A stretch of 64,000 bases of DNA. Source: Dipteris shenzhenensis (lineage: Eukaryota). Every line of letters begins with the position of its first letter. Within the stretch, counting starts at the first letter, position 1. The translations under genes were made by a program, and so were the position numbers. Below are positions 1-47,807 of this stretch, piece after piece. The notes under the pieces are model-generated. The model ran no database searches. It saw only the letters and a program-made list of their open reading frames with translations, and was not told the origin of the DNA. Location: assembly GCA_047967505.1 (NCBI GenBank), contig CM106538.1. One strand, 5' to 3'.

Positions 1-732
1 CACATGTCCCTTCTTGCCACAATAAAAGCATTCAATTTCCTTTTTACCACGGGACTGACTTCGGGATTTGGACTTACTAGCAGATCTCCCCTTCTGCTGA
101 GTCCTGCCTCTATCCTGTACTTGCAAAGCATTTGAAGACTTGCTGCCCGCATTATTCTTCCTGCTCATCTCCTCCATAAGGAGAGAGCTCTCTACATCAG
201 CATATATAAGAGTGACATTTGAATTAGACAGGGTGGTCTTGAAAGTGTCCCAACTCTCAGGGAGGGTACACAACAAGAAAGTAGCCTTGAACTCCTCATC
301 AAGATTCAACCCCTGTGCAATCAGCTGTGTAAAGATGGCATTGAACTCACTCAAGTGTGAGGTCATAGCTGTACCTTCCTTCATGCGAAGATCAACCAGC
401 TTCTTCAGCCAATAAACCTTACTGGCTAAGCTCTTTTGGGCATACAATTCTTCTAGCCTTTGCCATAGACCATAAGAGGTCTTTTCAGCCTGAACATTGA
501 ACACAAGAGTGTCTGAAATAGTGAGCATGATAGCTGCCCTTGCAGACAAATCAAGCTCTTCCCAGTCATCAGCTGCCATGTCAAATGGCTTGACACCCTT
601 CACCCTTATGGGCTTAGCAATCTTCTTTAACAGAAGTACATTCAAGCACTGTTCTGCCCATAATGCATAGTTGTGTGCTCCTTCCAGTTTCTTTATGTTC
701 AGAATTGAAGAATCACTTCCCCCTGATGCCAT
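1..732 (-). CDS. gag: Ty1/Copia gag (5' part of gag-pol, runs off the window start)
   Basis: Hand translation from ATG at 732 is open for 244 codons: MASGGSDSSILNIKKLEGAHNYALW...LEELYAQKSLASKVYWLKKLVDLRMKEG...FLLCTLPESWDTFKTTL...CFYCGKKGHV (UBN2-type Copia gag plus zinc knuckle). Absent from the ORF track because the stop lies outside the window. Confidence 0.93.
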   Translation of the reverse strand, partial: MASGGSDSSILNIKKLEGAHNYALWAEQCLNVLLLKKIAKPIRVKGVKPFDMAADDWEELDLSARAAIMLTISDTLVFNVQAEKTSYGLWQRLEELYAQKSLASKVYWLKKLVDLRMKEGTAMTSHLSEFNAIFTQLIAQGLNLDEEFKATFLLCTLPESWDTFKTTLSNSNVTLIYADVESSLLMEEMSRKNNAGSKSSNALQVQDRGRTQQKGRSASKSKSRSQSRGKKEIECFYCGKKGHV

Positions 733-2395
733 ATCAGATAAGGAAAGTACCTGACTCCCTGGAAGTAAAAAAAGACTGAATAAAAAATTCTGATTTCTCA
801 GAAAAAACCTGCTCTATTCAAGAGCCAGAAGCACTCTCAATGGTGCTGTTTTTTACTGTCAGGAAAATCTGCAGCAAAACAGTAAATGACCCTGCAAATA
901 CTGTACCTTCTGACACACTGTACCGAGCTCAAAGAGGCATAAAAACAGTAATTTCAGACTGCTGCAGCTGCTCAACAAGTGCTTAACAGTGCATAATCAT
1001 CTGACAAAGCACAAACACTGCTGTACTGACTGTACTGATCACTTCTCCCACCTCAGATGAGGTATTGCACTGAGTTAATATGCATAAACCACTTGGCAAA
1101 CACCCAAAAAAAAAATGACACTTCAGCCTGTCACAAAACCTGCAACAGAAAAATGGGATAAATCCCAAGCAATCACCCTTCTGCCAAGGCTTCTGCCAAG
1201 GGGATAAAATGCATCTGAAGATCTCTGTCGGTGACCCAAGTGCTATCAAACAACATCTGGGCAAAAGCCCCTTGATCTGACACCTGAACCAAGTGAAGAA
1301 CACCTCAACACTGAGGTAGCATGCAATATGAAAATCTCTCTGACAAAATCATCCACCAGTGTAATGCATATACTGCCCTGTGTAGAAATGACATACACAG
1401 ATCCCAACGTACAAACACTCAATGAGGAACCTTTTGAGCACTGTCAACGATGGACAGTTAGGGACCGAGTAAACTCGATGCGCCCTGGCCAAGCGTGGCT
1501 CAACTGAGGTTCTCTGAGTGTTGCACAAGAAATGTGACCTGCAAGAAAATGTCACCTCGACACTGCGGAAATCAAGACAAATGTGTGCTCTCTGGCACCA
1601 CACTGCCTCAAGGCATACAATGCATCACCTTCCGGTCAAAAGCCCTATGATCTGCTCACCCGGAAACTGAGATTCAAACCCAGTAAAAGCATATGTCCTC
1701 TTGCAAAATCAAGGCATTACCTTCCCAGAACAAAATAGCTGTGCAATCAACCACACACTGTGGTTCTCTTCACCTCAAGCACAAGATGAATGAAAGTACT
1801 TGCTGTACTGTCAAGATAACACAGTTTTGTGAACTGAAAAATGACCCTGAATCAAGAGGAATGAAGAGCAGAATGCGCTTTCACCTCTCTTTCTTCCCCA
1901 AACAAAAACCAATCTGCACCTGCTGTACTTACTGTACCTGCGCAGTGTACGGAATCCCAGAAAAGGGGGGAAAAAATTTTTTCGAAAATTTTGCCCTGTT
2001 GAAGTTCCCTGCAGGTACGACGGCGTCGTCCGTACGACCGTACGGCAGTCCGTACGACTGCGTACGGTCTCCCTTGTGTAGACTGCGCGACGCCCAAAGG
2101 GCTTAGCAGCTAGTAGCAGCTGCTAGCTGGCTGCTGGCTTGATGCGGCGCCGCCCTGCTGCTGTACAGCCCGCGACCCGCGCCACAGCCCGTGCCCGCTC
2201 CCGAGCTGCGCCCGTGCCCACGCCACAGCCCGCGCCCGCGCTGCTCCCGTGCCCACGCTCGATGCCCGCGTTTGCGCCTTGATCAGCCGCTCGAAGTCCG
2301 TCCGTCCGTACGGCTGTACGGACGTCGTACGTCCGTACGGCGCTGGCTATGTAGAGGTCGAAGGGGGGAAGGGAAAAGGTGGCTCTGATACTAGT

Positions 2396-5235: not shown

Positions 5236-6052
5236 TGGTATCAGAGCTAGATTGATCCCTCTTCTCTCCTCTAAGTCTGCTGTAGCCATAGCTGCCTCTT
5301 CTCAGATTTCTCCCCCGCTCAGCTGGTCGCCATCTTCATCTTCTGCCCGTCTTCTCCACGCTGCTGCCGTTCCTGCTGTCGCTGCAGATCTGCCCGCCAT
5401 CTCTCTGCCACGCTGCTGCCGTTCCTGCTGCCGCTGCAGATCTGCCCGCCATCTCTCTGCCAGATTTGCACGTCAGATCTGCACGCCATTACACTGCCAG
5501 ATCTGCTGCGCAGTTCTGCTCTCTGCCAGATCTGCGCGTCAGATCTGCACAGATCTGGCGCTGCTGTAGCTCCTGCTCTTGCTGTCACTGCTGCAGCTCC
5601 CGCTCCTGCTATCGCTCCTGCACCTGCATCAACAAACGAACATTTCGAAGTACAGTCCAGACTGTCCGTACAGTCCGTACGACTGTACGGAATCCGTACC
5701 TGTACGGAATCCGCACCTCTCCAGCTGCTGTTCGCGATCTGCGCCATCTGTTCGTGACTGTCTTGAAGCTCGTGCTGCCTGCATCTCCTGGACCGCGCTC
5801 TTTTTTGCGCCTCTGCCTCTGCCTTGGGATTAAGGTACTGTGCATTGCCTCTTTCAGTTTGCTCAGCATCAGTTTACTCAGCAGTTCCTTTTTTTGCTGG
5901 TTCCTCCTGCTTCGATGGGCTGTCATATGCTATGGCCTTGACAAAGTGGTGAGAGAACCGGCTTCTTGCATCTCTCCTTTCATTTATTTTTGCAATATTG
6001 TAAGGGAATAGACACTACCCTTGCATCTTAGCAAGCGGTAAGACCTTCCCAC

Positions 6053-6883
6053 ATGGCATCTTCCTCTCATTCTCTCATCTCTATCGACAAATTCAATGGG
6101 TCCAACTTTCATACTTGGCAAATCAAAATTAAGTGCCATCTTATGAAAGAAGGCCTTTGGGACATTGTTCACCGTGGTACTCCCGAAGGTCCATCTGAGG
6201 AAGTTGTTGCTGCCAAGAACGACAAAGCCTATGCTATCATATTGCTCGGCCTTGGAGATGATTACATTCATCACATCTCCGACATACAGTCTGCTCCTCA
6301 AGCATGGATCACTCTGGATACTCTTTTTGGAGCCCGATCTAAAAACTCTAAAATTGCACTTATGATCTCATTCTTTGATCTACATATGCAGGAAGGAGCT
6401 ACTATAGCCTCTCATGTTAATTATCTTCGCAGTCTTATGGTTCAGCTTGCGTCAGTTAAGTCTCCCATCTCCGAAGATATTGCTATTGCTGTGCTTCTCA
6501 AAAGCTTACCTGACTCCTATGATACTCTTGTCACTACCTTCAAGTATCATAATAATCCTTCTCTTGAGGGTATCATCAATGCTCTCCAAGAGGAAGAAAG
6601 AACTCAACTACGAAAGGTAACTGACACTGCATTTTTAGCAAAGAAAGGAAGTTCTAAGGTAAGAAAGCCTTGCACCCATTGTGGCAAAACTAATCATGTG
6701 GAGAAGGACTGTTTCAAGGCTCATCCATGCACCATTTGTGGCCGTGATAATCACCGGGAGAGGGACTGCTACTCCAAAACCTCTACATCAGCTCCTGCAT
6801 CTACCTCAGCCCATGTTGCTGCAACGTCTCCATCAGCTGATCCTGCTGTTCCTTCCTTACATGATGAGAAGTGGGCTTTTTGA
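6053..6883 (+). CDS. gag: Copia-type Gag, 276 aa, with two CCHC zinc knuckles
   Basis: IDKFNGSNFHTWQIKIK N-terminus; UBN2-like core (AVLLKSLPDSYDTLVT); CTHCGKTNHVEKDC and CTICGRDNHRERDC. Confidence 0.93.
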   Translation: MASSSHSLISIDKFNGSNFHTWQIKIKCHLMKEGLWDIVHRGTPEGPSEEVVAAKNDKAYAIILLGLGDDYIHHISDIQSAPQAWITLDTLFGARSKNSKIALMISFFDLHMQEGATIASHVNYLRSLMVQLASVKSPISEDIAIAVLLKSLPDSYDTLVTTFKYHNNPSLEGIINALQEEERTQLRKVTDTAFLAKKGSSKVRKPCTHCGKTNHVEKDCFKAHPCTICGRDNHRERDCYSKTSTSAPASTSAHVAATSPSADPAVPSLHDEKWAF

Positions 6884-13144: not shown

Positions 13145-13445
13145 GCGCTATTATTATCGTTGTGCTTCGCTTTTCTCTATTGAATATGGAGTATACTTTG
13201 GCATTGAGGGAGGTACGATTCGAATCTCTCTTTCGAAATTCAACGGATTTACTGAAATGAAATCAAACGCTTTTTTCATTTGGCCACTCCGCTTCGACTT
13301 TCTGAGCCAAGATTGGGGTTTGTTTTGATACGTGAACCCGTTAAACCATATTACTGATCGATAAATTGGGAAATGTGGTTAGGGCTTGGGATCAGATCAG
13401 CAGCTAGAAGGGGTCTCGAAATGGGAGGAACACATTTCCCAAGCG

Positions 13446-13526
13446 TGCGAAAGGGGGGACTTGAACCCCCACAAGTGGCCTCACTACCACCTCAAGGCAG
13501 CGCGTCTGCCATTCTGCCATTTTCGC
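13446..13526 (-). tRNA. trnL-GAG: tRNA-Leu(GAG), bacterial type, within the NUMT
   Basis: GCGAAAATGGCAGAATGGCAGACGCGCTGCC-TTGAGGT-GGTAG-TGAGGCCACTTGT-GGGGG-TTCAAGT-CCCCC-CTTTCGCA folds as a class II cloverleaf; anticodon GAG at 13493->13491; one A7:C66 mismatch; no encoded CCA. Confidence 0.92.
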
Positions 13527-21421: not shown

Positions 21422-24165
21422 TTATCCAATGCCCATCAATACATGACAATACTCAAATTGATGACTAGGTAGACTCTTATCTATAGGGTTATCGTTTGTA
21501 TGAAACTTGACAAGCTCTATGCACTTGTCCTGAAGTACCTCCCTGATGAAATGGTACCTGACCTCAATGTGTTTGGTCTTTGCATGAAAGACCGGATTCT
21601 GTGCTAAGCTGAATAGCACTTATGGAGTCACTATGCAATATCGGTACAACTTTACGAATCCCCAAATCTCCCAGTAGCTGATCAAGCCATATAGCCTCCT
21701 TACAACCCTTTGTGGCTGCAACATACTCGGCCTCTGTGGTAGACAAAGTAATGCACTTTTGTGCACAAGACATTCATGAACTGCACTGCACCGCCTACAA
21801 AGGCCAACACATAACCAGAAGTGGATCTCCTGCTATCCACATGCCCTACATAGTATGAATCTGTGTACCCAAGTATACACATCTCTCCTCTGCCAAAGCA
21901 GATGCACATCTCCTTAGTACCCTTCATGTACCTCATGATGCACTTAACGGCCTCCCAATACCTCTTTCCTAGATTAGCCATATACTGGCTAATAACTCCC
22001 ATTACAAATGCAATGTTCGGTCTAGTAGTTATCATAGCATACATACGACTCCCAACCACTAATGCATAAGGAACCTTGGCCATCATGGTCCTCTCCTCAT
22101 CTGATTTGGGACTATCTTCCTGACTCAGTTTCACATATAGAGGCAATGGAGTACTTACTGCATTCCCACCACATATTGAAATGTTGCAACACTTTTGTAA
22201 CATACTCCTTCTACGCATACCAAGAATATGACCTACAGGTCCCAAATTTGTCCTTCAATGCATCCAGCGCATAAGAGTTCTTGCTATCCCCAATAGCATA
22301 TCATCCACAAAAAGTGCTAGGAGTATTAGGCTATTATCCTTAGCCCTTTTATTATAGAGGCAGTGACAATCTCACTTCTTCTGAAACCCTGGGACCGAAT
22401 GAAAGCATCAAACTTCTTATACCATTCTCTAGGCACTTGCTTAAGGCCATAGAGACTCTTTTTCAGCTTGCAAACCAAATGCTCTTTGCCCTTTTCTTCA
22501 AAGCCTTCTGGCTGTGCCATGTAAATTCCCTCATGTAGATCCCCTTGCAAGAAAGCTATCTTGACATCCATTTGCATAAGCTCCATATCCTCTTCTACTA
22601 CAAGTCCAAATACACATCCAAGTGTGGTCAACTTCACAACTAGAGAGAAGATCTCATTGAAGTCCACACCCTTCTCTTGCTTGAACCCTTTTCTTTCCAC
22701 GTGGCAAAGAAACCAAGTCCCAAGTCTTATTATTCATGATCGAATTGCATAGAATACTCCCACTTGCACTGATACTCGCATATCATAGCCTCTCTATAGT
22801 AAGAAGGCTCCCTGCAATCAATAAGCATCACATAGTCTACCCCTGGAACAAATCTCTACACTCTAGCTGATCTTCTCAAGGGCCTTTCAACTTGCTTTCC
22901 CACCTACATATCAGCCTCATTGGACTCATTATTTCCACCAATAGATGATCCATCATTTGCCCTTGATTGTGTACCTGTGGGAGTACTTGGTGGCACCATT
23001 TCCTTCACATTCGGTGCATGGACAACTTGTTGTCTATCAATGTATGTAGGTGGATTCACATCCTAAGAAGTGATTCTCCTAATTTCCACATCCCTCATGG
23101 GTGTCTTATGCATCTTTTCATTGAAGACCACATCATGGCTTTGTATGATTTTCTTTGCTTATGGATCCCAGAGATGATAGCCTATCTCTCATTTTCACCA
23201 TAACCCAAAAAGATGCATTTTCTAGACTTAGGATCTAGCTTCTTCCGAAGCTCTTTGGCACATGTGCATATGCCTCACACCCAAATATATGCAAATGAGA
23301 GTAAGAGGGCTTCTTGCCAATCCATGCCTCTTCAGGAATACCACCATCCAAACTCTTATTAGGTGATCTATTAATCACATGCACTGCAGTCTTCATTGCC
23401 TTAGCCCAAAAACCACTAGAAAGACTTGCATTGGAAAACATATATTGCAACCTTTCCTGAATGGTGCGGTTCATCTTTTCAACAACTGGATTTTGCTCTG
23501 GAGTACGAGGGGATGTGAGCTCCTTCTTGATCCCACGTGTATCACAAAAATGCTAAAAGTCATGAGAGAGATACTCTCCAGCATTGTCAGTCCATAGGCA
23601 TTTAAGCATTCTACCTTACTAATTTTCAACCAAAGCCAGCCATTTCTGAAATACCTAGAACACATCACTCTTCTGAGCCATAACATAAGCCCACATTTTC
23701 CTAGTTGCATCATCAATGAATGTCACATAGTATTCAACCTAGCCTAATGATCACGTAGGCATGGGACCAGATATGTCTAAATGCACCAAATCGAGCTTTT
23801 TAAGCTCTTTCTTTCCCCTTCTTTTATGGGCTGATTTAGTTTGCTTCCCATAGAGAAAATGCTCACAAAATTCAAAGTAAAAAAAACTCAAATGCAGTAC
23901 ATAACCCAAATGGCATAAGAGTTTCATTCCATTTTAGCTCATATGGCCCAACCGGTAATGCCATAAAGAAGTACTTGGTTTCTCGGTTATTGCAACAACA
24001 TGATCAGACACCCTTGATACATGTAAGGATACAAAGTGCCATACTTGGCACCCCTGGCTAAAAGCATAGAGTCCTCCTGAATTTTCCAACTCCCAAAACC
24101 AAAGATGGTATGAAAACTAGCATCATCTAGCTGACCTGTTGAAATGAAACTCTTGGTAAACTTAG
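21422..24165 (-). pseudogene. pol: Copia pol remnant (INT, RT, RNase H)
   Basis: RH: LSTTEAEYVAA, PVFHAKTKHIEVRYHF. RT: QMDVKIAFL, LKKSLYGLKQ, GYTDS. INT: MNRTIQE...FWAKAMKTAVHVINRSP. Frameshifts and stops throughout. Confidence 0.92.
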
Positions 24166-24169
24166 GCAC

Positions 24170-25171
24170 TGTTATGGATAAATTTGACCAAGGTAAAAGG
24201 CATAAATATGTGTGTGTGCTTGTATGTGTGGTAATAGTATAATAAAATATGGTGTGCATAGGGCCCAGGGTTGAGGTGGTAGGGCATGACCATGTGCCGC
24301 CCTTCCATGTAAGAGGACCCATAGGTGTGTTGTACATAATCCATGGTAGAAATATTATAAAATGTTAAGGTGGCATGGTTTTTCCATGTGCCACCCCTCC
24401 ACCTAGGCATCCCATGCCTGCATTTAGTGAGACATGGCCCAAGGACCATGGGAGAAGTAATATAAAATAGGTGGAGATGGATATTATATTGGATTATTCC
24501 CTCCATGTATGATAGGCCCATGTGGGGGGGGGTGTAGATAGTCTAAGAATGCAAGTTAAATAATGGGGAAAGTAGGATGAGGTGGCAAGATTCCTTGTGC
24601 CAACCCTCTACTTGTCCTCCTAGATGTTTGAACGTATTATAAAATTGGGAAGAGACCAAGGGAGTATCTTAGACTTGGGATATGGGGTTTGATTTATGTG
24701 GAAAAATGAGGCAAAGGGTTGTCGCACACAATTGAGAGTGCGTACCCACCTAGCCCACATGGGAGATTCCTCCACACACACCATGCATGTGGGAGGATGC
24801 ATTTATTGGGAGAGACCCCCTCTCTTGGCTATAAAAGGAGGAGGCTATTCCTTGATGTGACACGCTCATTCTTGTAAAGCCAGCATGCTAGTACCTTGAT
24901 TTCCCCCATCCTTCCTTTCAAATAAAGCATGACTCTCTTTTCTTCCCTTGATGTCTCCATCCATACATTCCACCTCCCATCATGTACATGCTCCTCTTCC
25001 CCTCTCCCTTCCTCTTTGTGCCATGGTCTCCCTCTTCATTCCCACCCCTATTAATCCCTTTTCCCCACCCATGTTAACGCTTCTCCCCTCATGTTCCCTC
25101 TCCCCCATGGCCCTCGAGCATCGCCATGCCTAGCATCTAGCCTCATGCCTTGATTTCTTTTCTAGTTAATA
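24170..25171 (+). repeat. 5' LTR of the nested Gypsy
   Basis: TGTTATGG...TAGTTAATA; repeated at 30874-31866. Confidence 0.92.
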
Positions 25172-25175
25172 GAAT

Positions 25176-25197
25176 TGGTGTGGCTGCTAGGATTCGA
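25176..25197 (+). promoter_or_regulatory. Primer-binding site complementary to tRNA-His
   Basis: TGGTGTGGCTGCTAGGATTCGA versus the complement of the plant cytosolic tRNA-His 3' end as recalled (TGGTGTGGCTGCTGGGATTCGA): one mismatch. Confidence 0.8.
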
Positions 25198-25309
25198 AAT
25201 CTTCGCGGCTAGTGGCATAAAATCCGTCAACATCCGTTACTCCTACGAGTGTGTGCAGTCTACGGCATCTTTTGCATGTGGTTCTCTCTTTCTGCGTCTC
25301 CAAATGATC

Positions 25310-25515
25310 ATCTATACACCCACCTTCTGGCATCTTCAAACTGAACATACACTTCTTAAGAAATTCCTTGTGAGAAGCTGATGGTTTTTCATACAATGTA
25401 TCTAACATGCTCATCAAGTCCTTTCTTGTGTTTTATTTAAGAAGATGAAATCCACTGATGTTGCCAAACATAGTCATATCATTCCTAGTGCCTTTCTATC
25501 AAGAACTTGCTAGCT
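25310..25515 (-). pseudogene. Copia gag fragment lying antisense in the Gypsy leader
   Basis: LMSMLDTLYEKPSASHKEFLKKCMFSLKMPEGGCIDDHL, a UBN2-type Copia gag motif. Confidence 0.75.
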
Positions 25516-26732
25516 TACAACTGACATACATGTAGACTTCTTTTTAATCCCACCTTTGACAAGAAAGTTCTGCTCGCGGTTCTCCATTTCTGTGGCTACA
25601 AAACTTCTCTATTTCTATGCCTCCAATCTGTGTGTCTTCTGCTCGCGGTTCCTGCGCATCCGCACATTTTCTGCTCACGGTTCGCATCCGCACATCTTTT
25701 GCTCATGGTTGCAAAACTCATGCTCATGGTTCCTGTGCATCCACGCATCTTCTGGTCATGGCTGCAAAACTCCTGCAACATACTTCACGCCCCTCTATCT
25801 TCTTCTCTTTCTCTTCTCTTCTCCTTATATTAAGGAGTGGGAATTGAACCCAAGACCTCCCCATTCACAAAAAGAAGACTTACCAATGGGCCAGCAAATA
25901 GGAAGTGATCAAAATGTAATGACATTGCTTATATGCTGAAATCTCATGAACTGTAACTCTCTAACCGTGGGGAGTTTCCTCTTGCTATAAAAAGCAAAAG
26001 TACACTTCATGTGCTCTATTCATATCTCATACTAGATTGCAGATTCTGAAATTTTTTAAGTTCACTCCTTGGACCCATGCTACATGAGGAGGGTGGATAT
26101 TTATGTCACTTCTCGACGAGTTCAAGGATTTGGTGCTGGGTCCTCTGCTCGTTATGGCTACCAATTGGCGAGATCTCTTTCTTGATCTTCATGTCGATCT
26201 TCAACAACTGATTGTACAATGCATTGCTCGAGAAGACGATGGGTGGGGTAATACAACTTGGATGGTTCAAGGTGAAGAACTAGTGATACACTGGGAGGGC
26301 TTTGATTCCAACCCTACTCATTGTGTGGTGATTGAGCTACTTGCTACATCGGAGGTAATTAAAAGGATGACATTCTTCCAAGGGTGGGATGATCCACAAG
26401 CTTGGGGGGAGATTTGGTGCATCTGCTTATTAATTTATATGGATAAGCTCGTCTTGAATGATTTCTTCTCAACCTCACTACAAAGGTTTCTGGGGCTCGG
26501 CTATGGTAATGTTTTGACCAAGGAACCCCTTTGTACCTAATCAACCCTTTGAGCCACATTTTGAGCTTCATGTTGTAATTCTTTTTGGTCGAAAGATAAA
26601 CTATTAACAAAGGATTGTAAGTTTGTTTAGTGCTGAATGTCTTGCTCAAGTATTAAATTCTCCCCACCCTGTCCTTCTACCTACCTTGGACTACCGAGAA
26701 ACCTGGGATGTTTAGATTTTAGTCTTGGTGTA

Positions 26733-27112
26733 ATGACATCTTGGATCCTTCAATTTGACGGAGCATACAAACCTTCGACCAAGGCTGCTGGTGTGGGTGT
26801 GAAGCTCACTTCACCGGGGGGTAAGGTGTATTGTTAAGTCTGCACCTGCAAGTACTTGCAACCAAGCTGAGTACTCGACACCCATTTTTGGGCTACAAAA
26901 GGTGCAAGAACATCACATCAAGTAACTTGAGGTGCGAGGAGATTCTCAACTCATGTGTGAACAAGTTAGTGGAAGGTGGAAGGTGCGGGAGTGAAGGCTT
27001 GGTTCCACGGCATCAACAAGCATTTGAACTTTGCAAACAATTTAAAGAGGTAAAAATTCAACATATCCCTTGAGCTCAAAATTTAGTTGCTGATTTCTTG
27101 GCACGTGAAGCT
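26733..27112 (+). pseudogene. Archaeal-type (additional) RNase H domain, aRH
   Basis: WILQFDGA.K...AGVGVKL.SPGG; TCNQAEY; LEVRGDSQLMCEQVSGRWKV; FKEVKIQHIP*AQNLVADFLAREA. All four acidic catalytic motifs are present, with small frameshifts and stops. Confidence 0.9.
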
Positions 27113-27689
27113 TGTACTTCAATCACGCATGAAACGAGTGGAAGCACCACCTCAACAAAGCCGCAAGCCATGAATGAGGGTGATCATTTGTAAGGAATGC
27201 AAAGATTGTGGTCATCATGAAACTAAATGTTGTGCATATTTGATACGAGTTTACCGACTTTAGAACATCATCAAAAAGGTCCTTAAGGACATTGCTCAAA
27301 AGAAGGATGCCAAACCGCACACCCCTTGAAGAAATAGCATGGCGACTACAAGAATTGAAAGAACTTGAAGGTGATGTGCAAGCTCTCCAACTGTTGACAT
27401 TTGTCATGGCATTCTTGTTTGCCTTGATGAACAACCCCATGCAATGCCATGTCTCTAACCCTCGCTTGTAAAGATGGATGCAATATCATGCCTTGACCAA
27501 TAAGGGTTGGTCCTTTTAAGATTGTCTATGAGCTATTCTATGCTAAAGATTCTTCCTGTATAGCGTTTCACAATACACCAGTCACACCCTACCCTGCCTA
27601 TGTGTGCTTTGTGGATGTATCTTCACCTGATTTTTAGTTCAAGCTATCTCTTTCCATTGTTTGCCAATAGATAAGCCTCATTTCGCCTC

Positions 27690-28670
27690 TCTCTTTTCCA
27701 TTTTCCAAGCATGGTTGTGGTCGGGTTAAAGAAAATCCAAATGAGTATCTTATGGCCTTCAAGCGCCGTTGTGTTTCTCTCAACTTTCTTACCAAAGATA
27801 GATGGTTGTTGGTTCTTTCCACATTTCTAGAGGGTTTGGCTCAAGTGTGGTATAAGAAGCAGGACGAGGACGTTCACCAAAGTTGGCCGAGGTTGACAGT
27901 AGCTATGATCAAGTATTTTGGCAAAGAAGATGAGCCGAAGAATGTGTACCTGCAGGAGACAAACTTGAAGCACTAAGAAGGTGAGACGGCGCATCGATAT
28001 GTAGATCGAGCAACTGTGCTCTTGGACTGTTTAATTGCCATGTAGGAGGACAATGTCAAATTTCAAGCTGGAATGACTCAACATGTGCTAGGAGCAAGGG
28101 ATGAATTCTGCCTCAAGCTTAAATGGGAGAATCTAGAGACCATGGTGCTAGCACAAGAGATTGCTCAAAAGTTTGATAAAGTTCAGTCTAACCCCGTTTC
28201 AAAGAAGACGGTTGTCCCTTTGCAACCCCCTCAATTCTTGCAACAACAACCTGGGGGGTTCAACTCAGGGGCATACCCCCACCACCCATCAAGGATGTAT
28301 CCACCACCTCCACCTCCAAATGTATGGTCCTCCCTTAGATGCTTACCCTCAACAAGGTGTATATCCTCAACCTCTGCCTGGAAAATTTCCCCAGCCTCGC
28401 CCACTAGCCCCCCTCCTTCCTACTCCCCTGACCCCTCCTGCTAAAGAACCTGGAGTCAATGACCTTGCCAAGGCCTTGAGATGGTGGGCATCAAAAATAA
28501 AGCCAATCACCCTCCAAGAGATGATCTTTGGCTTGAGATGGTGGGATGATCTTTGGCTTGAGATGGTGGGCATCAAAAATAAAGCCAATCACCCTCCAAG
28601 AGAACGTGCTAATGTTGTGTGCTACGAGTGCCACCAAAAGGGTCATTAACGCACCGAATGTCCCAATATT
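27690..28670 (+). pseudogene. gag: Gypsy gag
   Basis: ENPNEYLMAFKRRC...FLEGLAQVWY...SWPRL...EGETAHRYV; Pro-rich tract; CYECHQKGH*RTECP zinc knuckle. Confidence 0.85.
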
Positions 28671-29089
28671 CCAAGCATGAATCTTCTAGGTGAATCAAGC
28701 ACCGAGAATTGTGACATAGAGGTCCTTAACCTTGGGAAGAGAAGTCATGCTACCTCAGACCTCTCTCCAAACCATGGACCACTGGGCCGCCCAGGTAGAA
28801 GGTGTCCTTCTCAGAGCCCTCAGATGCTGAGATGGTAGACCCACCAATAGAGAAGACTAAAAGATCTCACAGGAGTAAGTGGTCGCCCTCAGATTTTCCT
28901 ATTGGCTTAGGGCAAGAAGACTATTCGGTCGTTCAGGACCTTGCTCATCGGTCTTTGAGCATCATGCTTTCTCAATTAATAGCATTAAGCCCTAAGGTGA
29001 GATGTGAGCTATAGCAAGGGCTCTCAACAAGGGGGAGCAAGAAAAAGGAAAAGGTACGAGAGATTTCTTCTAGCTCTGAAGAAGTTGAT

Positions 29090-30830
29090 CGGCACCGCAT
29101 ACAATAGATGTCATCATAGATGATTGCGGTATCAAAAGTGTGTGTGTTGATGGGGGAGTTGCATGTAATATCATGGTGCCTCGTATCATGAAGAAGTTGA
29201 ATTTGAAATGTACAAGGTGTTCCTCCACTCAAATCAAGGTAGCAGATCGTCGATGACTCGCCACCTTGGTCGAAACTGAATGACGCTACTCTGAGGTTGA
29301 CAAGCATGCCTTGTCTTTGGTGTTTTGCATTGAGAAATTTAAGCATTATGTGGCTGGAAAGTACTTCATTATAATCTCTAGCAATGGTCTTGCAAAGCAG
29401 GTTCTTTAATCACCAAATCCCATGGGCCGGTTGGCCAAATGGTTGGTAGTTCTATAAGAATATGATTTTTCTTTCAAAATTGTAAAGGGGGGTTGTTCCA
29501 ACTTGAAGAATCCTTTGATTGATTTAGAAGAGTGCCTTGATGTAACCCTTGTAGTGGCCATAGAAGTTGGGGATCCATGGTATGGTGGTATCTATAGGTT
29601 TCTGACCACTTTCTCCTTTCCTCCGGAAAGTACTAGCTATGAGAGAAAGAAGATCCATAGAGATAGTAGGCACTACACTCTCTTTGATGGGGTGTTGTAC
29701 CGTAAGGCATGGATGGGGTACTAAGACAGGCCATTGATGCAGATGAAGTACCTAAGGTATTGAAGCATTATCATGATGGATTTTGTGGAAGCCACTATGC
29801 CAGTGACTATACAACTAAGAAGATTTTACATGCTGGGTACTATTGGCTGACCTTGTTCAAGGATGTCACTATGTATTGCAAAACTTGTGAACCATGCCAA
29901 TTATTTGGTAGGAGGGATTTGTGTCCTGGGCAACATCATCCAGTGATGTCCACCCATCCGTTTCAGAAGTGGGAAATAGATTTTGTCGGACCCTTGCCCA
30001 TGGCTACCTGCAAAAAGAAGTATCTTTTGGTAGCCACTTAGTATGTCACTAAGTGGGCTGAAGCTATTGCCCTCCCCACTGCAAATGGTAAGGCAGTTTC
30101 AAATTTCATATTTGAACGTATCTGCACAAGGTTTGGGACACCCATGGAAATAGTATCTGCCCTTGGGAGTCCATTCTTAAATGAAGCAGTGGAGTTGCTC
30201 ATGGATCACATGGGTATTGATCATCGCACTTCTAGCATCTATTATCTAGCATCCATGGGATGAATGGAGCGGACCAATGGCCTCCTTTGTAAATCCATGG
30301 GAAAAATGGCCATAGGGTATAGGAGCCAGTGGGATCAGAAGGTCACTGAAGCCATGTGGGCTTATAACATCACTCATAAAACGTCTATAGGTCACACTCC
30401 TTTTGAGTTGGTGTACAGTACTGAGGCAGTTTTACCACTAGAGATAGAGATTCCGGATTAGCACAAGAACAGAGGATGACAGAAGATGAACATGTAGAAG
30501 CCAGGTTGGTACAACTTGAGAAGTTAGATGAAACCTCATGCCTTGCACTACATCAAATAGAGATCCAAAAGAATCAACAAAAGGCCCGCTTGGATGCTAA
30601 GATTCGCAAGGGATGGGAAAGACACTTTGCTGAGGGGGATGTTGTGCTATGCTTTGATAAAAGATTGGACCACCAAATGGATAAAAAGTTCCTTCCACTA
30701 TGGACCGGTCCATACAAAGTCATCAAGGAATGTAGCAATGGGTCTGTACAAGTTCAAGAGCTACATGAGCCATATGGCAAGAAGGTGATCAACAAGCGTT
30801 ACCTCAAGCCCTTCTTTGTGCATGATGGTC
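29090..30830 (+). pseudogene. pol: Gypsy pol remnant: protease, C-terminal RNase H, integrase (RT absent)
   Basis: PR: VCVDGG..CNIM...IKVAD. Then directly RYSEVDKHALSLVF...GRLAKWLVVL*EYDF (RH). INT: HDGFCGSH...GYYWLTLFKD...CEPCQ, WEIDFVGPLP, ERTNGLL, TPFELVY, WTGPYKV. No chromodomain. Confidence 0.9.
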
Positions 30831-30873
30831 CCAAGCATGGAAATGCTATGCATTCCCTGCCTGGGGGGGGAGC

Positions 30874-31866
30874 TATTATGGATAAATTTGACCAAGGTAA
30901 AAGGCATAAATATATGTGTGTGCTTGTATGTGTGGCAATAGTATAATAAAATATGGTGTGCATAGGACCCAGGGTTGAGGTAGCAGGGCATGACCATGTG
31001 CCACCCTTCCACGTAAGAGGACCCATAGGTGTGTTGTACATAATCCATGGTAGAAATATTATAAAATGTTAAGGTGGCATGGTTCCTCCATGTGCCACCC
31101 CTCCACCTAGGCATCCCATGCTTGCATTTAGTGAGACATGGCCCAAGGACCATGGGAGAAGTAATATAAAATAGGTGGAGATGGATATTATATTGGATTA
31201 TTCCCTCCATGTATGATAGGCCCATGTGGGGGGGGGTGTAGATAGTCCAAGAATGCACATTAAATAATGGGGAAAGTAGGATGAGGTGGCAAGATTCCTT
31301 GTGCCAACCCTCTGCCAACCCTGTCCTCCTAGATGTTTGAACGTATTATAAAATTCGGAAAAGACCAAGGGAGTATCTTAGACTTGGGATGTGGGGCTTG
31401 ATTTATGTGGAAAAATGAGGCAAAGGGTTGTCGCACACAATTGAGAGTGCGTACCCATCTAGCTCACATGGGAGATTCCTCCACATACACCATGCATGTG
31501 GGAGGATGCATTTATTGGGAGAGACCCCCTCTCTTGGCTATAAAAGGAGGGGGCTATTCCTTGATGTGACATGCTCATTCTTGTAAAGCCATCATGCTAG
31601 TATCTTGATTTTCCCCATCCTTCCTTTCAAATAAAGCATGACTCTCTTTTCTTCCCTTGATGTCTCCATCCCTACATTCCACCTCCCATCATGTACATGC
31701 TCCTCTTCCCCCTCTCCCTTCCTCTTTGTGCCATGGTCTCCCTCTTTATTCCCACCCCTATTAATCCCTTTTCCCCACCCATGTTAATGCTTCTCCCGTC
31801 ACGTTCCCTCTCCCCCATGGCCCTCGAGCGTCTAGCCTCATGCCTTGATTTCTTTTTTAGTTAATA
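30874..31866 (+). repeat. 3' LTR of the nested Gypsy
   Basis: Repeat of 24170-25171; first dinucleotide mutated to TA. Confidence 0.92.
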
Positions 31867-31870
31867 GCAC

Positions 31871-32990
31871 ATGTCTCACATTTTTAAAAAAAATGCATAC
31901 CCATTTACAAAAGAAACTATATGTCACCTACTCCCATTATATCACATGCATAGTTATTTCCAAGATGCACACAATTGGTCTTTCCATTGTCATAAGTGGA
32001 GAACCATTCCCTATGGGGAGTAACATGGAATGAAGCACCAGAATCCAAAATCCAATCCTAGGAATATGCATCATCTAAAGTGGTAAGCAACTTTGCAGGT
32101 AGACTAGACATGAATTGTCACTATCATTAGTGACTGCATTGATCTCCTCGATCTTCATTTTTCCTTTGTCTTCCCCTGGAATCTCTTCCTTCTTATTTGC
32201 ACCCCAATTTGCATTCTTTTTCTTATCTTTTTGCTCTCTTTTCAGCTTGTAGCAATCCTTTTTCATGTGGCCCTTCTTGCCACAATGGTAACACTCAATG
32301 TTCCGTGCCCTGGATTTTTACAAGACTTCCCTGTTTCTTGGGACTTCCCCCTGAACTTATGATCTGCCCCTTTGCACATTTAAGGTTGCATCTTGCTTAT
32401 TGCTATCCATAGACTTTCGTCTAATCTCCTCGACCAACAAGCTACCCTCAGAATCATCAAACTTCAGTAGTCTAGTAGGTGCACAGTTACCGAGAGTTGT
32501 ACGGAAGGTATCCCATGACGATGGCAATGAACACAAAAGGAATATTGCCTTAGTCTCTGCATCAAAATTCAACTTCTGAGCCTGAAGTTGTGACTGAAAA
32601 TAATATTGAATTCATTCAAGTGAGAAGCAATGGAGACCCCTTCCTTCATCTACAGCTCAAACAACCTCTTCAAGAGGTAAACTTTATTAGAGGCAGTTTC
32701 CTTCTCATAAGTGGCACGTAATTTCTTCCATAAATCTTCCGTAGTCTACTCATTTACTAATGTGAAATAAAATGACTTTGTAAGATGAATTCTAACAGTA
32801 GACTTTGCTAATGCATCCATAATCATCCTCACACAGAGCTGTAAGCATAGCTGCAATCGCTTCCAAGGGCTTAATCTACTTCTTTTGAATAAGTACATCC
32901 CTTATCTATTATTTCCATAGAGAAAATTTTGTCCCATCAAAATTTTTAAAATTAAAACTCTCCTTTTTAGACATGGAAGAGGATGCCACG
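31871..32990 (-). pseudogene. gag: Copia gag and protease remnant
   Basis: FKNFDGTKFSLW; AIFLLCSLPSSWDTFRTTL; C..CGKKGHMKKDC; WILDSGASFH (~32025-32054). Confidence 0.9.
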
Positions 32991-47595: not shown

Positions 47596-47807
47596 ACAAG
47601 ATAAACTGTCGTTTTAAAAACTCGTGTTGCTTTGCTCTAGCCTTTCTTCAAGCTCAAGTGCCCTGACACTTCTTCTGAGTTGTCGCGTTACCTGCATGAC
47701 AGTCTCTTGCTTTTTGTCAAGTCAACTATTTGGTTGACTTTGGCTTGCTCTTTATTTGATTGGCTCTTTATTTATCCTTTGTTTGGCTCTTTATTTGTTT
47801 TTAGCTT

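What the first reader, a model, noticed from the sequence alone, without database searches (positions are those of the whole stretch)
26733..28670. Archaeal-type RNase H located upstream of gag: unusual LTR-retrotransposon architecture
Seen: order LTR-PBS(His)-ORFx-aRH-(CxxCxxxxxxC-like Cys cluster ~27190)-GAG-PR-[no RT]-RH-INT-PPT-LTR, all sense. The native RH runs straight into INT, with no aRH between them. Known: Tat-clade elements carry aRH within pol (between RH and INT, between PR and RT, or after INT). I know of no standard lineage with aRH 5' of gag, though I cannot exclude a report. Inference: an independent acquisition or relocation of aRH, as a separate ORF or an N-terminal Gag fusion, which would supply RNase H at capsid-like stoichiometry.
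Basis: partly seen in the sequence, partly recalled or inferred. Interest (0 to 1): 0.78.

Follow-up and report, generated by a model that had tools for sequence, protein, structure and literature searches.

The report
Solo RNase H gene before gag
A dead, RT-less copy of a plant Ty3/gypsy (Tat-type) retrotransposon carries a separate archaeal-type RNase H gene in front of gag; this rare layout is real and shared by sibling copies, but it was already described in 2023.

Summary
Two 96%-identical LTRs (24170-25171, 30874-31866; 4-bp duplication GCAC) enclose, all on the + strand: a PBS, a 145-aa unknown ORF (ORFx), an RVT_3/archaeal-type RNase H (26733-27193), gag, a remnant of the native RH, integrase and a PPT. 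RT is deleted. No aRH lies between RH and INT or after INT.

The aRH is not a one-off insertion and not a Gag fusion. Public assemblies hold 14 distinct intact 154-aa sibling ORFs with the same start and stop and an invariant D-E-D-D core. The window copy has two frame breaks and two premature stops.

The native RH remnant lacks the canonical residue at all three catalytic positions that survive, as in aRH-bearing Tat elements.

The layout is already published. It is "structure #4" (Biryukov and Ustyantsev 2023; four mosses and Selaginella tamariscina), renamed "pre-capsid" in 2026.

One point may be new. The nearest named relatives of the integrase and of a neighbouring copia gag are all ferns, and ferns were reported with in-pol aRH only. 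Host and RT clade could not be determined.

Verdict: new member of a known kind, modest interest.

The parts
24170..25171 (+). 5' LTR (starts TG; TATA-like TATAAAAG at 24830-24837, AATAAA at 24921-24926); target duplication GCAC at 24166-24169
   Evidence: 96% identical to the 3' LTR; ends read
25176..25198 (+). primer-binding-site-like stretch beginning TGG, 4 bases after the LTR
   Evidence: read; the tRNA-His assignment is recalled, not tested
26103..26540 (+). ORFx, a 145-aa open frame of unknown function upstream of the aRH; diverged siblings P0001 and P0002 are 58-62% identical
   Evidence: no Pfam family; AlphaFold2 model unusable
26733..27193 (+). stand-alone archaeal-type RNase H (aRH) ORF, 154 codons in intact siblings; in the window it has frame breaks near 26830 and 26989 and two premature stops
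27671..28664 (+). gag remnant: capsid-like part 27719-28024, proline-rich stretch, CCHC knuckle about 28620-28664 with an internal stop, and a 25-base perfect tandem duplication at 28520-28570
29240..29263 (+). approximate junction of the internal deletion that removed RT and the first third of the native RH
   Evidence: no RVT_1; RT_RNaseH profile starts at position 39; about 1,200 residues of P0008 correspond to about 390 codons here
29263..29463 (+). remnant of the native (RT-linked) RNase H; the three catalytic positions that remain are non-canonical
29706..30763 (+). integrase (H2C2 29736-29906, rve 29952-30242, C-terminal part to 30763), with internal stops
30863..30872 (+). polypurine tract GGGGGGGGAG just before the 3' LTR
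   Evidence: read
30874..31866 (+). 3' LTR; target duplication GCAC at 31867-31870

Best explanation
This is a decayed, non-autonomous copy of a repeated Ty3/gypsy family of the Tat lineage, inserted into a Ty1/copia element. RT has been deleted.

The family's layout is LTR-PBS-ORFx-[solo aRH ORF]-gag-pol-PPT-LTR. That is the published Tat 'structure #4 / pre-capsid' arrangement.

Shown: the aRH is a free-standing 154-aa gene with an intact D-E-D-D core in siblings. The pol-encoded native RH of this copy has lost the canonical residue at every catalytic position that can still be read.

Inferred: the small aRH protein is translated from the 5' part of the genomic (or a subgenomic) RNA. It supplies, in trans, the RNase H activity that reverse transcription needs, while the native RH serves only as a structural tether. 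The window copy made no RT of its own and was mobilised by autonomous relatives. With a rate of 1.3e-8 per site per year (recalled, not calibrated for this host), K2P 0.037 gives an insertion age of roughly 1.4 million years.
For: Element borders, TSD and PPT.

aRH identity: RVT_3 hits. The best solved relatives are ribonuclease H1 4e19 (E 2.8e-17), 3hst, and 2ehg/3aly.

Solo ORF in siblings: 14 of the 23 listed members of two 90% clusters (33 members in all) are full-length 154 aa. All 14 are distinct and 89-99% identical. D9, E48 and D72 are invariant; the ADFLA motif with the fourth Asp is present in all 14. Variable sites number 20 of 128 in the domain against 10 of 26 in the tail.

Family feature: contigs of four runs cover all 30 bins of 24000-32000. 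One contig runs from 26668 to 27674 (aRH to the start of the gag frame). Deletion derivatives join 25223 to 29075, 26204 to 29004 and 27521 to 28944, tying the 5' module to pol in other copies. P0005 links the end of the ORFx region to the aRH.

Degenerate native RH: the window reads D, S and N where canonical elements read E, D and D. The paper states that native RH is degraded in all aRH-bearing Tat structures.

Tat affinity of the integrase: it pairs (86/91) with P0189, an Adiantum nelumboides protein carrying aRH plus INT, inside an 89/88 clade.

Published layout.
Against: RT is missing, so the RT-based Tat cluster (A-L) cannot be assigned.

No full-length sibling was seen. The longest contig that leaves the aRH ends at 27674 with unaligned ends. 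Depth in run X1 falls from 430 (27471-27737) to 113 (27738-28004). Many aRH-bearing copies may therefore continue differently from this one.

The eight closest integrase hits (41-45% identity) carry no RVT_3. The six of them that span the native RH keep a canonical one.

The aRH does not group with in-pol Tat aRHs; its nearest neighbours are small metagenomic 'ribonuclease HI' proteins, with no starred support.

The degenerate native RH was read in one decayed copy only. Trans-complementation by the aRH protein is inference; nothing here shows expression or packaging.
Confidence: 0.78

Rival explanations
1. The ORFx-aRH module belongs mainly to a non-autonomous (LARD-like) derivative lineage, or is shared between several families. 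On this view the autonomous master carries its aRH inside pol, for example between PR and RT, the interval deleted here. The 'pre-gag only' layout would then be a feature of parasites, not of a complete element.
For: The aRH bins have 2-4 times the depth of the gag and pol bins. Contigs leaving the aRH end near 27674. The PR-RT interval cannot be inspected. The integrase's nearest named relative, P0189, has aRH next to INT.
Against: The window has no aRH between RH and INT or after INT. Three independent deletion joints tie the 5' module to pol. An element with two aRH copies is known in print only as a hornwort variant.
Confidence: 0.14
2. A one-off capture: this single copy picked up a host RNase H gene or a fragment of another element (LINE-type RNH) upstream of gag.
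For: The aRH tree places it nearest small stand-alone RNase HI proteins rather than Tat pol domains.
Against: Thirty-three near-identical sibling ORFs exist in two clusters, on separate contigs. Sibling contigs in four runs from four studies cover the region. No endonuclease or RVT_1 domain lies nearby.
Confidence: 0.03
3. The aRH is an N-terminal part of Gag, joined by read-through or frameshifting, and so is delivered at capsid stoichiometry.
For: Same strand; the aRH C-terminal piece and the gag ORF happen to share a frame in the window.
Against: All 14 full-length sibling ORFs stop at the same codon. About 480 bases with many stops in every frame separate it from gag. Both papers describe a separate ORF.
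Confidence: 0.05

Closest known systems
Tat LTR retrotransposons of 'structure #4' / 'pre-capsid' (clusters Tat B of four mosses and Tat C of Selaginella tamariscina; Biryukov and Ustyantsev 2023; Prokopeva et al. 2026)
   Same: aRH as an independent ORF in the 5' region upstream of gag, on the same strand. Native RH is degraded. No aRH was seen inside pol in the intervals that can be read.
   Different: The host appears not to be a moss or clubmoss, because the nearest named relatives are ferns. The RT cluster is untestable. An additional conserved ORFx precedes the aRH; I could not see whether the published elements have one, because figures and supplements are not available.
Fern Tat (cluster Tat D, 'structure #1', retrovirus-like RH-aRH-INT), represented here by Adiantum nelumboides protein P0189
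   Same: Nearest named integrase: 42% identity over 198 residues, sister at 86/91. Both carry an RVT_3 aRH.
   Different: There the aRH sits inside pol directly before INT. Here RH runs into INT without it, and the aRH is a solo gene before gag. The two aRHs are only 35% identical.
Tat 'structure #3' / TatIII ('post-integrase' solo aRH; conifers, Cycas, Ginkgo)
   Same: The aRH lies outside the RT-RH-INT block as its own ORF, which raises the same question of how it acts in trans.
   Different: The position is after INT rather than before gag. In the window, INT is followed directly by the PPT and the LTR.
Ogre/Retand and other Tat elements with 5' extra ORFs (PMD, Transposase_28)
   Same: An extra ORF between PBS and gag.
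   Different: Those 5' ORFs are not RNase H, and their aRH lies between RH and INT. ORFx here matches no Pfam family.

Membership tests
Tat lineage of Ty3/gypsy (aRH-bearing) | An additional archaeal-type RNase H (RVT_3) in the element besides the RT-linked RH | tested here: met
   Intact siblings.
Tat lineage of Ty3/gypsy (aRH-bearing) | Catalytic core of the native RH degraded | tested here: met
   The three positions still present read D/S/N, against E/D/D in canonical elements. The first Asp lies in the deleted part. Only this one decayed copy was read.
Tat lineage of Ty3/gypsy (aRH-bearing) | RT groups inside the Tat clade | not testable with these tools
   RT is deleted in the window. 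No sibling RT sequence could be fetched.
Tat lineage of Ty3/gypsy (aRH-bearing) | INT groups with Tat integrases | tested here: inconclusive
   It pairs with the aRH-bearing fern protein P0189 at 86/91, inside an 89/88 clade that also holds RVT_3-less proteins. No starred set was found, and no labelled Athila or chromovirus references were available.
Tat structure #4 / pre-capsid | [quoted passage not shown] | tested here: met
   The ORF spans 26733-27193, the stop is shared by all 14 full-length siblings, and gag starts more than 470 bases downstream.
Tat structure #4 / pre-capsid | No aRH inside pol | tested here: inconclusive
   None between RH and INT or after INT. The PR-RT interval is deleted.
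Tat clusters B/C (moss / Selaginella tamariscina) | Host and RT cluster as published | tested here: inconclusive
   All 16 named hits among the 37 copia-gag hits are ferns. The best named INT hits are Adiantum. The host itself is not named, and databases hold few named transposon proteins of mosses or lycophytes.
LINE (L1-type) RNase H | RNH at the end of an APE-RT ORF2 | tested here: not met
   No endonuclease or RVT_1 domain anywhere between the LTRs.

The most novel reading that the evidence does not exclude
The host is a fern (or another vascular plant outside the mosses and Selaginella tamariscina). This family would then be the first 'pre-capsid' Tat outside those groups. It would have arisen within or beside the fern Tat D lineage, so far reported with in-pol aRH only, by relocation or replacement of the aRH. 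That would be a second, convergent origin of the solo pre-gag RNase H, here coupled to a further conserved 5' gene (ORFx).
Probability: 0.3. Interest if true: 0.45.

Novelty: new member of a known kind. Interest (0 to 1): 0.3.

Why it matters
The layout poses a real mechanistic question that the 2023 paper also raises: how can an RNase H encoded outside pol serve reverse transcription, and how could it have let the native RH decay? A high-copy family with many intact 154-aa aRH genes is a convenient system for testing trans-acting RNase H in an LTR element. If the host is a fern, the published taxonomic picture (ferns with structure #1 only; structure #4 confined to mosses and one clubmoss) would need amending. 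Otherwise this is an ordinary dead copy of a described type.

Tried and rejected
- **Whole genome:** not held, so no census of siblings was possible.
- **Earlier notes of this scan:** nothing by place, sequence or words.
- **Sequencing runs:** seven holders, all with small shares and coded names; no RNA holder listed.
- **The search for related loci with P0003:** none in viral contigs. In metagenome contigs there was one distant 33% locus, L001 on a 1-kb contig, which I did not use.
- **ORFx:** no Pfam family at E <= 0.1. The AlphaFold2 model has mean pLDDT 47.7, too poor to search with, so its function is left open.
- **Protein atlas:** it only confirmed generic RVT_3/RNase H and copia-gag families.
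- **Rfam:** only a tRNA; ARAGORN reads it as tRNA-Leu.
- **aRH tree:** 209 domain rows from 154 proteins. I left out P0004, P0005 and P0097 as near-copies or parts of the query family, and domain pieces under 90 query positions. It gave no supported placement.
- **Top aRH hits:** all ten scanned carry two or three RVT_3 stretches and none carries a retroelement domain; two of the ten also have a SAP domain. They rank high through summed scores, not closeness.
- **Cys cluster near 27190:** rejected as out of frame.
- **Gag fusion, LINE origin and one-off capture:** rejected (see rival explanations).
- **Ten further window ORFs:** scanned for a host gene to place the organism; only the copia gag matched.
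- **Wang et al. 2021 (New Phytol):** cited as co-discoverer of the pre-capsid layout, but not held. I saw only its entry in a reference list.
- **Supplementary tables of the 2023 and 2026 papers:** species lists and element names could not be read. They may name the mosses and may already include further hosts.
- **Complex prediction:** not used, because no intact partner (RT or Gag) of this family was available.

Full report
**Anatomy**

A direct repeat of about 1 kb, 96.0% identical over 957 columns plus a 37-base piece, brackets the finding. A MAFFT alignment gives 953 matches, 35 mismatches and K2P 0.037.

Read from the sequence:
- The LTRs are 24170-25171 and 30874-31866.
- Both are flanked by GCAC (24166-24169 and 31867-31870).
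- A purine run (30863-30872) abuts the 3' LTR.
- A stretch starting TGG follows the 5' LTR after four bases (25176-25198).

The element sits inside a minus-strand Ty1/copia element. The copia gag and zinc knuckle lie at 32075-32611, and its pre-integrase part lies at 23934-24116 on the other side. This independently fits the borders.

**The aRH**

With stops read as X, Pfam finds RVT_3 in two frames:
- 26812-27000: profile 22-86, E 9.7e-07, 29.2 bits against a cut-off of 21.6.
- 26963-27112: profile 74-123, 19.2 bits.

A search with the frame holding ORFx and the first aRH piece returned 5 proteins among 148 candidates. Two match ORFx at 59-62% identity. Three match the aRH start at 76-97%. 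Two of those three, P0003 and P0004, are complete 154-aa proteins with RVT_3 and RNase_H domains.

tblastn maps P0003 onto the window as 26733-26834, 26821-26988 and 26990-27190 in three frames. There is no second aRH anywhere in the 64 kb. It has two frame breaks (near 26830 and 26989) and two premature stops.

By sequence, its best solved relatives are ribonuclease H1 4e19 (E 2.8e-17), Rv2228c 3hst and ribonuclease HI 2ehg/3aly. As I recall, these are the archaeal-type RNase HI group.

**Siblings**

The two 90% clusters around P0003 and P0004 hold 25 and 8 members. Of the 23 members listed, 14 are full-length 154 aa.
- All 14 are distinct and 89-99% identical to each other.
- D9, E48 and D72 are invariant. 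The fourth Asp, in the ADFLA motif, is present in all 14.
- Variable sites number 20 of 128 in the domain against 10 of 26 in the tail.
- All end at the same stop. The aRH is therefore a stand-alone gene, not a Gag fusion.

Contigs of four public runs of one coded organism, laid at 80% likeness or more, cover all 30 bins of 24000-32000. The counts laid were 599, 443, 566 and 345 contigs.
- One 1,188-base contig runs from 26668 to 27674.
- Other contigs join 25223 to 29075, 26204 to 29004 and 27521 to 28944.
- These are deletion derivatives in which the 5' module is joined directly to the pol side.
- P0005 reads from the end of the ORFx region into the aRH.

The module is thus a family feature.

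Two results count against a simple picture. Contigs that leave the aRH tend to end near 27674. Depth in run X1 also falls from 430 to 113 between the bins on either side of about 27737. Many aRH-bearing copies may therefore not continue into this gag.

**The rest of the element**

Gag is supported by three weak signals:
- a Retrotrans_gag hit below cut-off;
- a 24.5% match to the gag of polyprotein P0008 at 27719-28024;
- a CCHC knuckle with an internal stop.

No protease family and no RVT_1 were detected. RT_RNaseH starts only at profile position 39. Against P0008, roughly 800 residues are missing between 28024 and 29197. RT and the start of the native RH are therefore deleted.

Integrase (H2C2 and rve) follows. 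There is no RVT_3 between RH and INT or after INT.

I aligned the native RH remnant with relatives.
- Canonical elements (P0021 and P0007-P0012) read E, D and D at the three catalytic positions that survive.
- The window reads D, S and N at those positions.
- Angiosperm Tat proteins are degenerate at other members of the tetrad.

According to Biryukov and Ustyantsev, native RH is degraded in every aRH-bearing Tat structure and intact in the aRH-less Tat Z lineages. The window therefore behaves like the former, and its RVT_3-less integrase neighbours behave like the latter. This was read in one decayed copy only.

**What is in print**

- Neumann et al. 2019 (PMC6317226, passages) list three aRH positions, all within the polyprotein.
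- Ustyantsev et al. 2015 (PMC4408406, passages) mention ORFs upstream of gag only as PMD or Tr28 extra ORFs.
[quoted passage not shown] They report ferns with structure #1 only, and they ask how such a separate ORF could function.
- Prokopeva et al. 2026 (PMC13468544, abstract, passages, sections 2.3, 2.4 and 3.8, and the references) name the layout 'pre-capsid'. They credit the 2023 paper and Wang et al. 2021, which is not held.
- My searches for further reports (DARTS paper passages) found none.
- Supplements were closed, so species lists were not seen.

**Lineage and host**

The integrase search returned 18 proteins with E <= 1e-10 among 1,294 candidates.
- The eight best (41-45% identity) have no RVT_3.
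- Five of the 18 have RVT_3.
- The best named hit is from the fern Adiantum nelumboides.

In a 22-row IQ-TREE the window's integrase pairs at 86/91 with P0189, inside an 89/88 clade. That clade is separate from a starred clade of angiosperm RVT_3-bearing Tat proteins. P0189 is an Adiantum nelumboides protein carrying aRH next to INT. Its integrase is 42% identical to the window's, and its aRH 35%.

For an intact copia gag elsewhere in the window, 16 of 37 hits are named, and all 16 are ferns: 14 Adiantum and 2 Ceratopteris.

This points to a fern-like host. However, named transposon proteins of mosses and lycophytes are scarce, so it is not proof.

**Origin of the aRH**

HMMER against 1.84 billion representatives found 14,423 proteins at E <= 0.001. 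Of the 150 listed, 8 also carry pol-like domains.

A FastTree of 209 RVT_3 domains puts the query beside three small metagenomic 'ribonuclease HI' proteins at 77-90 local support, with no starred set. The 13 pol-borne aRH rows need only 4 changes on the tree. Relocation versus fresh acquisition is therefore unresolved, as in the published aRH tree.

**Mechanism**

Shown:
- a free-standing aRH gene that is conserved in siblings;
- a native RH with no canonical catalytic residue left at the readable positions;
- no RT in this copy.

Inferred:
- The aRH protein provides RNase H in trans, and the native RH remains as a tether.
- This copy was moved by autonomous relatives.

How two upstream ORFs are compatible with gag translation is unknown. 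How the aRH reaches the particle is also unknown.

**Verdict**

The claimed novelty is not: this is the published structure #4. What may be new is the host group and the companion ORFx.

Noticed in passing
window 21700-24169 and 31867-32611, minus strand: The element is nested in a Ty1/copia element. Copia gag plus zinc knuckle lies to the right of the 3' LTR; the copia pre-integrase part and RT lie to the left of the 5' LTR.
   Followed up: partly
window 26103-26540: ORFx is a 145-aa open frame between the PBS and the aRH. It is conserved at 58-62% identity in two diverged sibling proteins (66 invariant columns). It matches no Pfam family, and its AlphaFold2 model is unusable (pLDDT 47.7). 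It may be a second accessory gene of this family.
   Followed up: partly
P0006-P0012 (unnamed ENA/JGI proteins): The closest integrase relatives (44-45% identity) have no RVT_3. The six that span the native RH (P0007-P0012) keep a fully canonical DEDD core. This fits the aRH-less 'Tat Z' type described in 2023.
   Followed up: partly
window 6032-6883 (+) and 1-813 (-): Two further copia gag ORFs. The first is intact (283 aa; Retrotran_gag_2, DUF4219, zf-CCHC). Its named relatives are exclusively ferns, at 35-49% identity.
   Followed up: partly
window 28520-28570: A perfect 25-base tandem duplication inside gag. Sibling contigs skip 66 bases here (28479 to 28546), so the duplication looks private to this copy or a sub-lineage.
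   Followed up: no
window 25635-25710: A 28-base tandem repeat (2.6 copies, 79% matches) in the leader between the PBS and ORFx. Sibling contigs show length variants in this stretch.
   Followed up: no
P0098, P0104 and other top aRH hits: All ten top hits scanned carry two or three tandem RVT_3 domains and no retroelement domain; two of them (P0098, P0104) also have an N-terminal SAP domain. This looks like a cellular multi-RNase-H architecture.
   Followed up: no
window 13445-13526, minus strand: A tRNA-Leu (anticodon GAG) gene. It is the only Rfam match in the window.
   Followed up: no
window 38000-60000: G+C falls from about 0.42-0.47 to 0.33-0.39, with strongly negative GC skew. CA/TG microsatellites lie near 47600 and 54500.
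   Followed up: no
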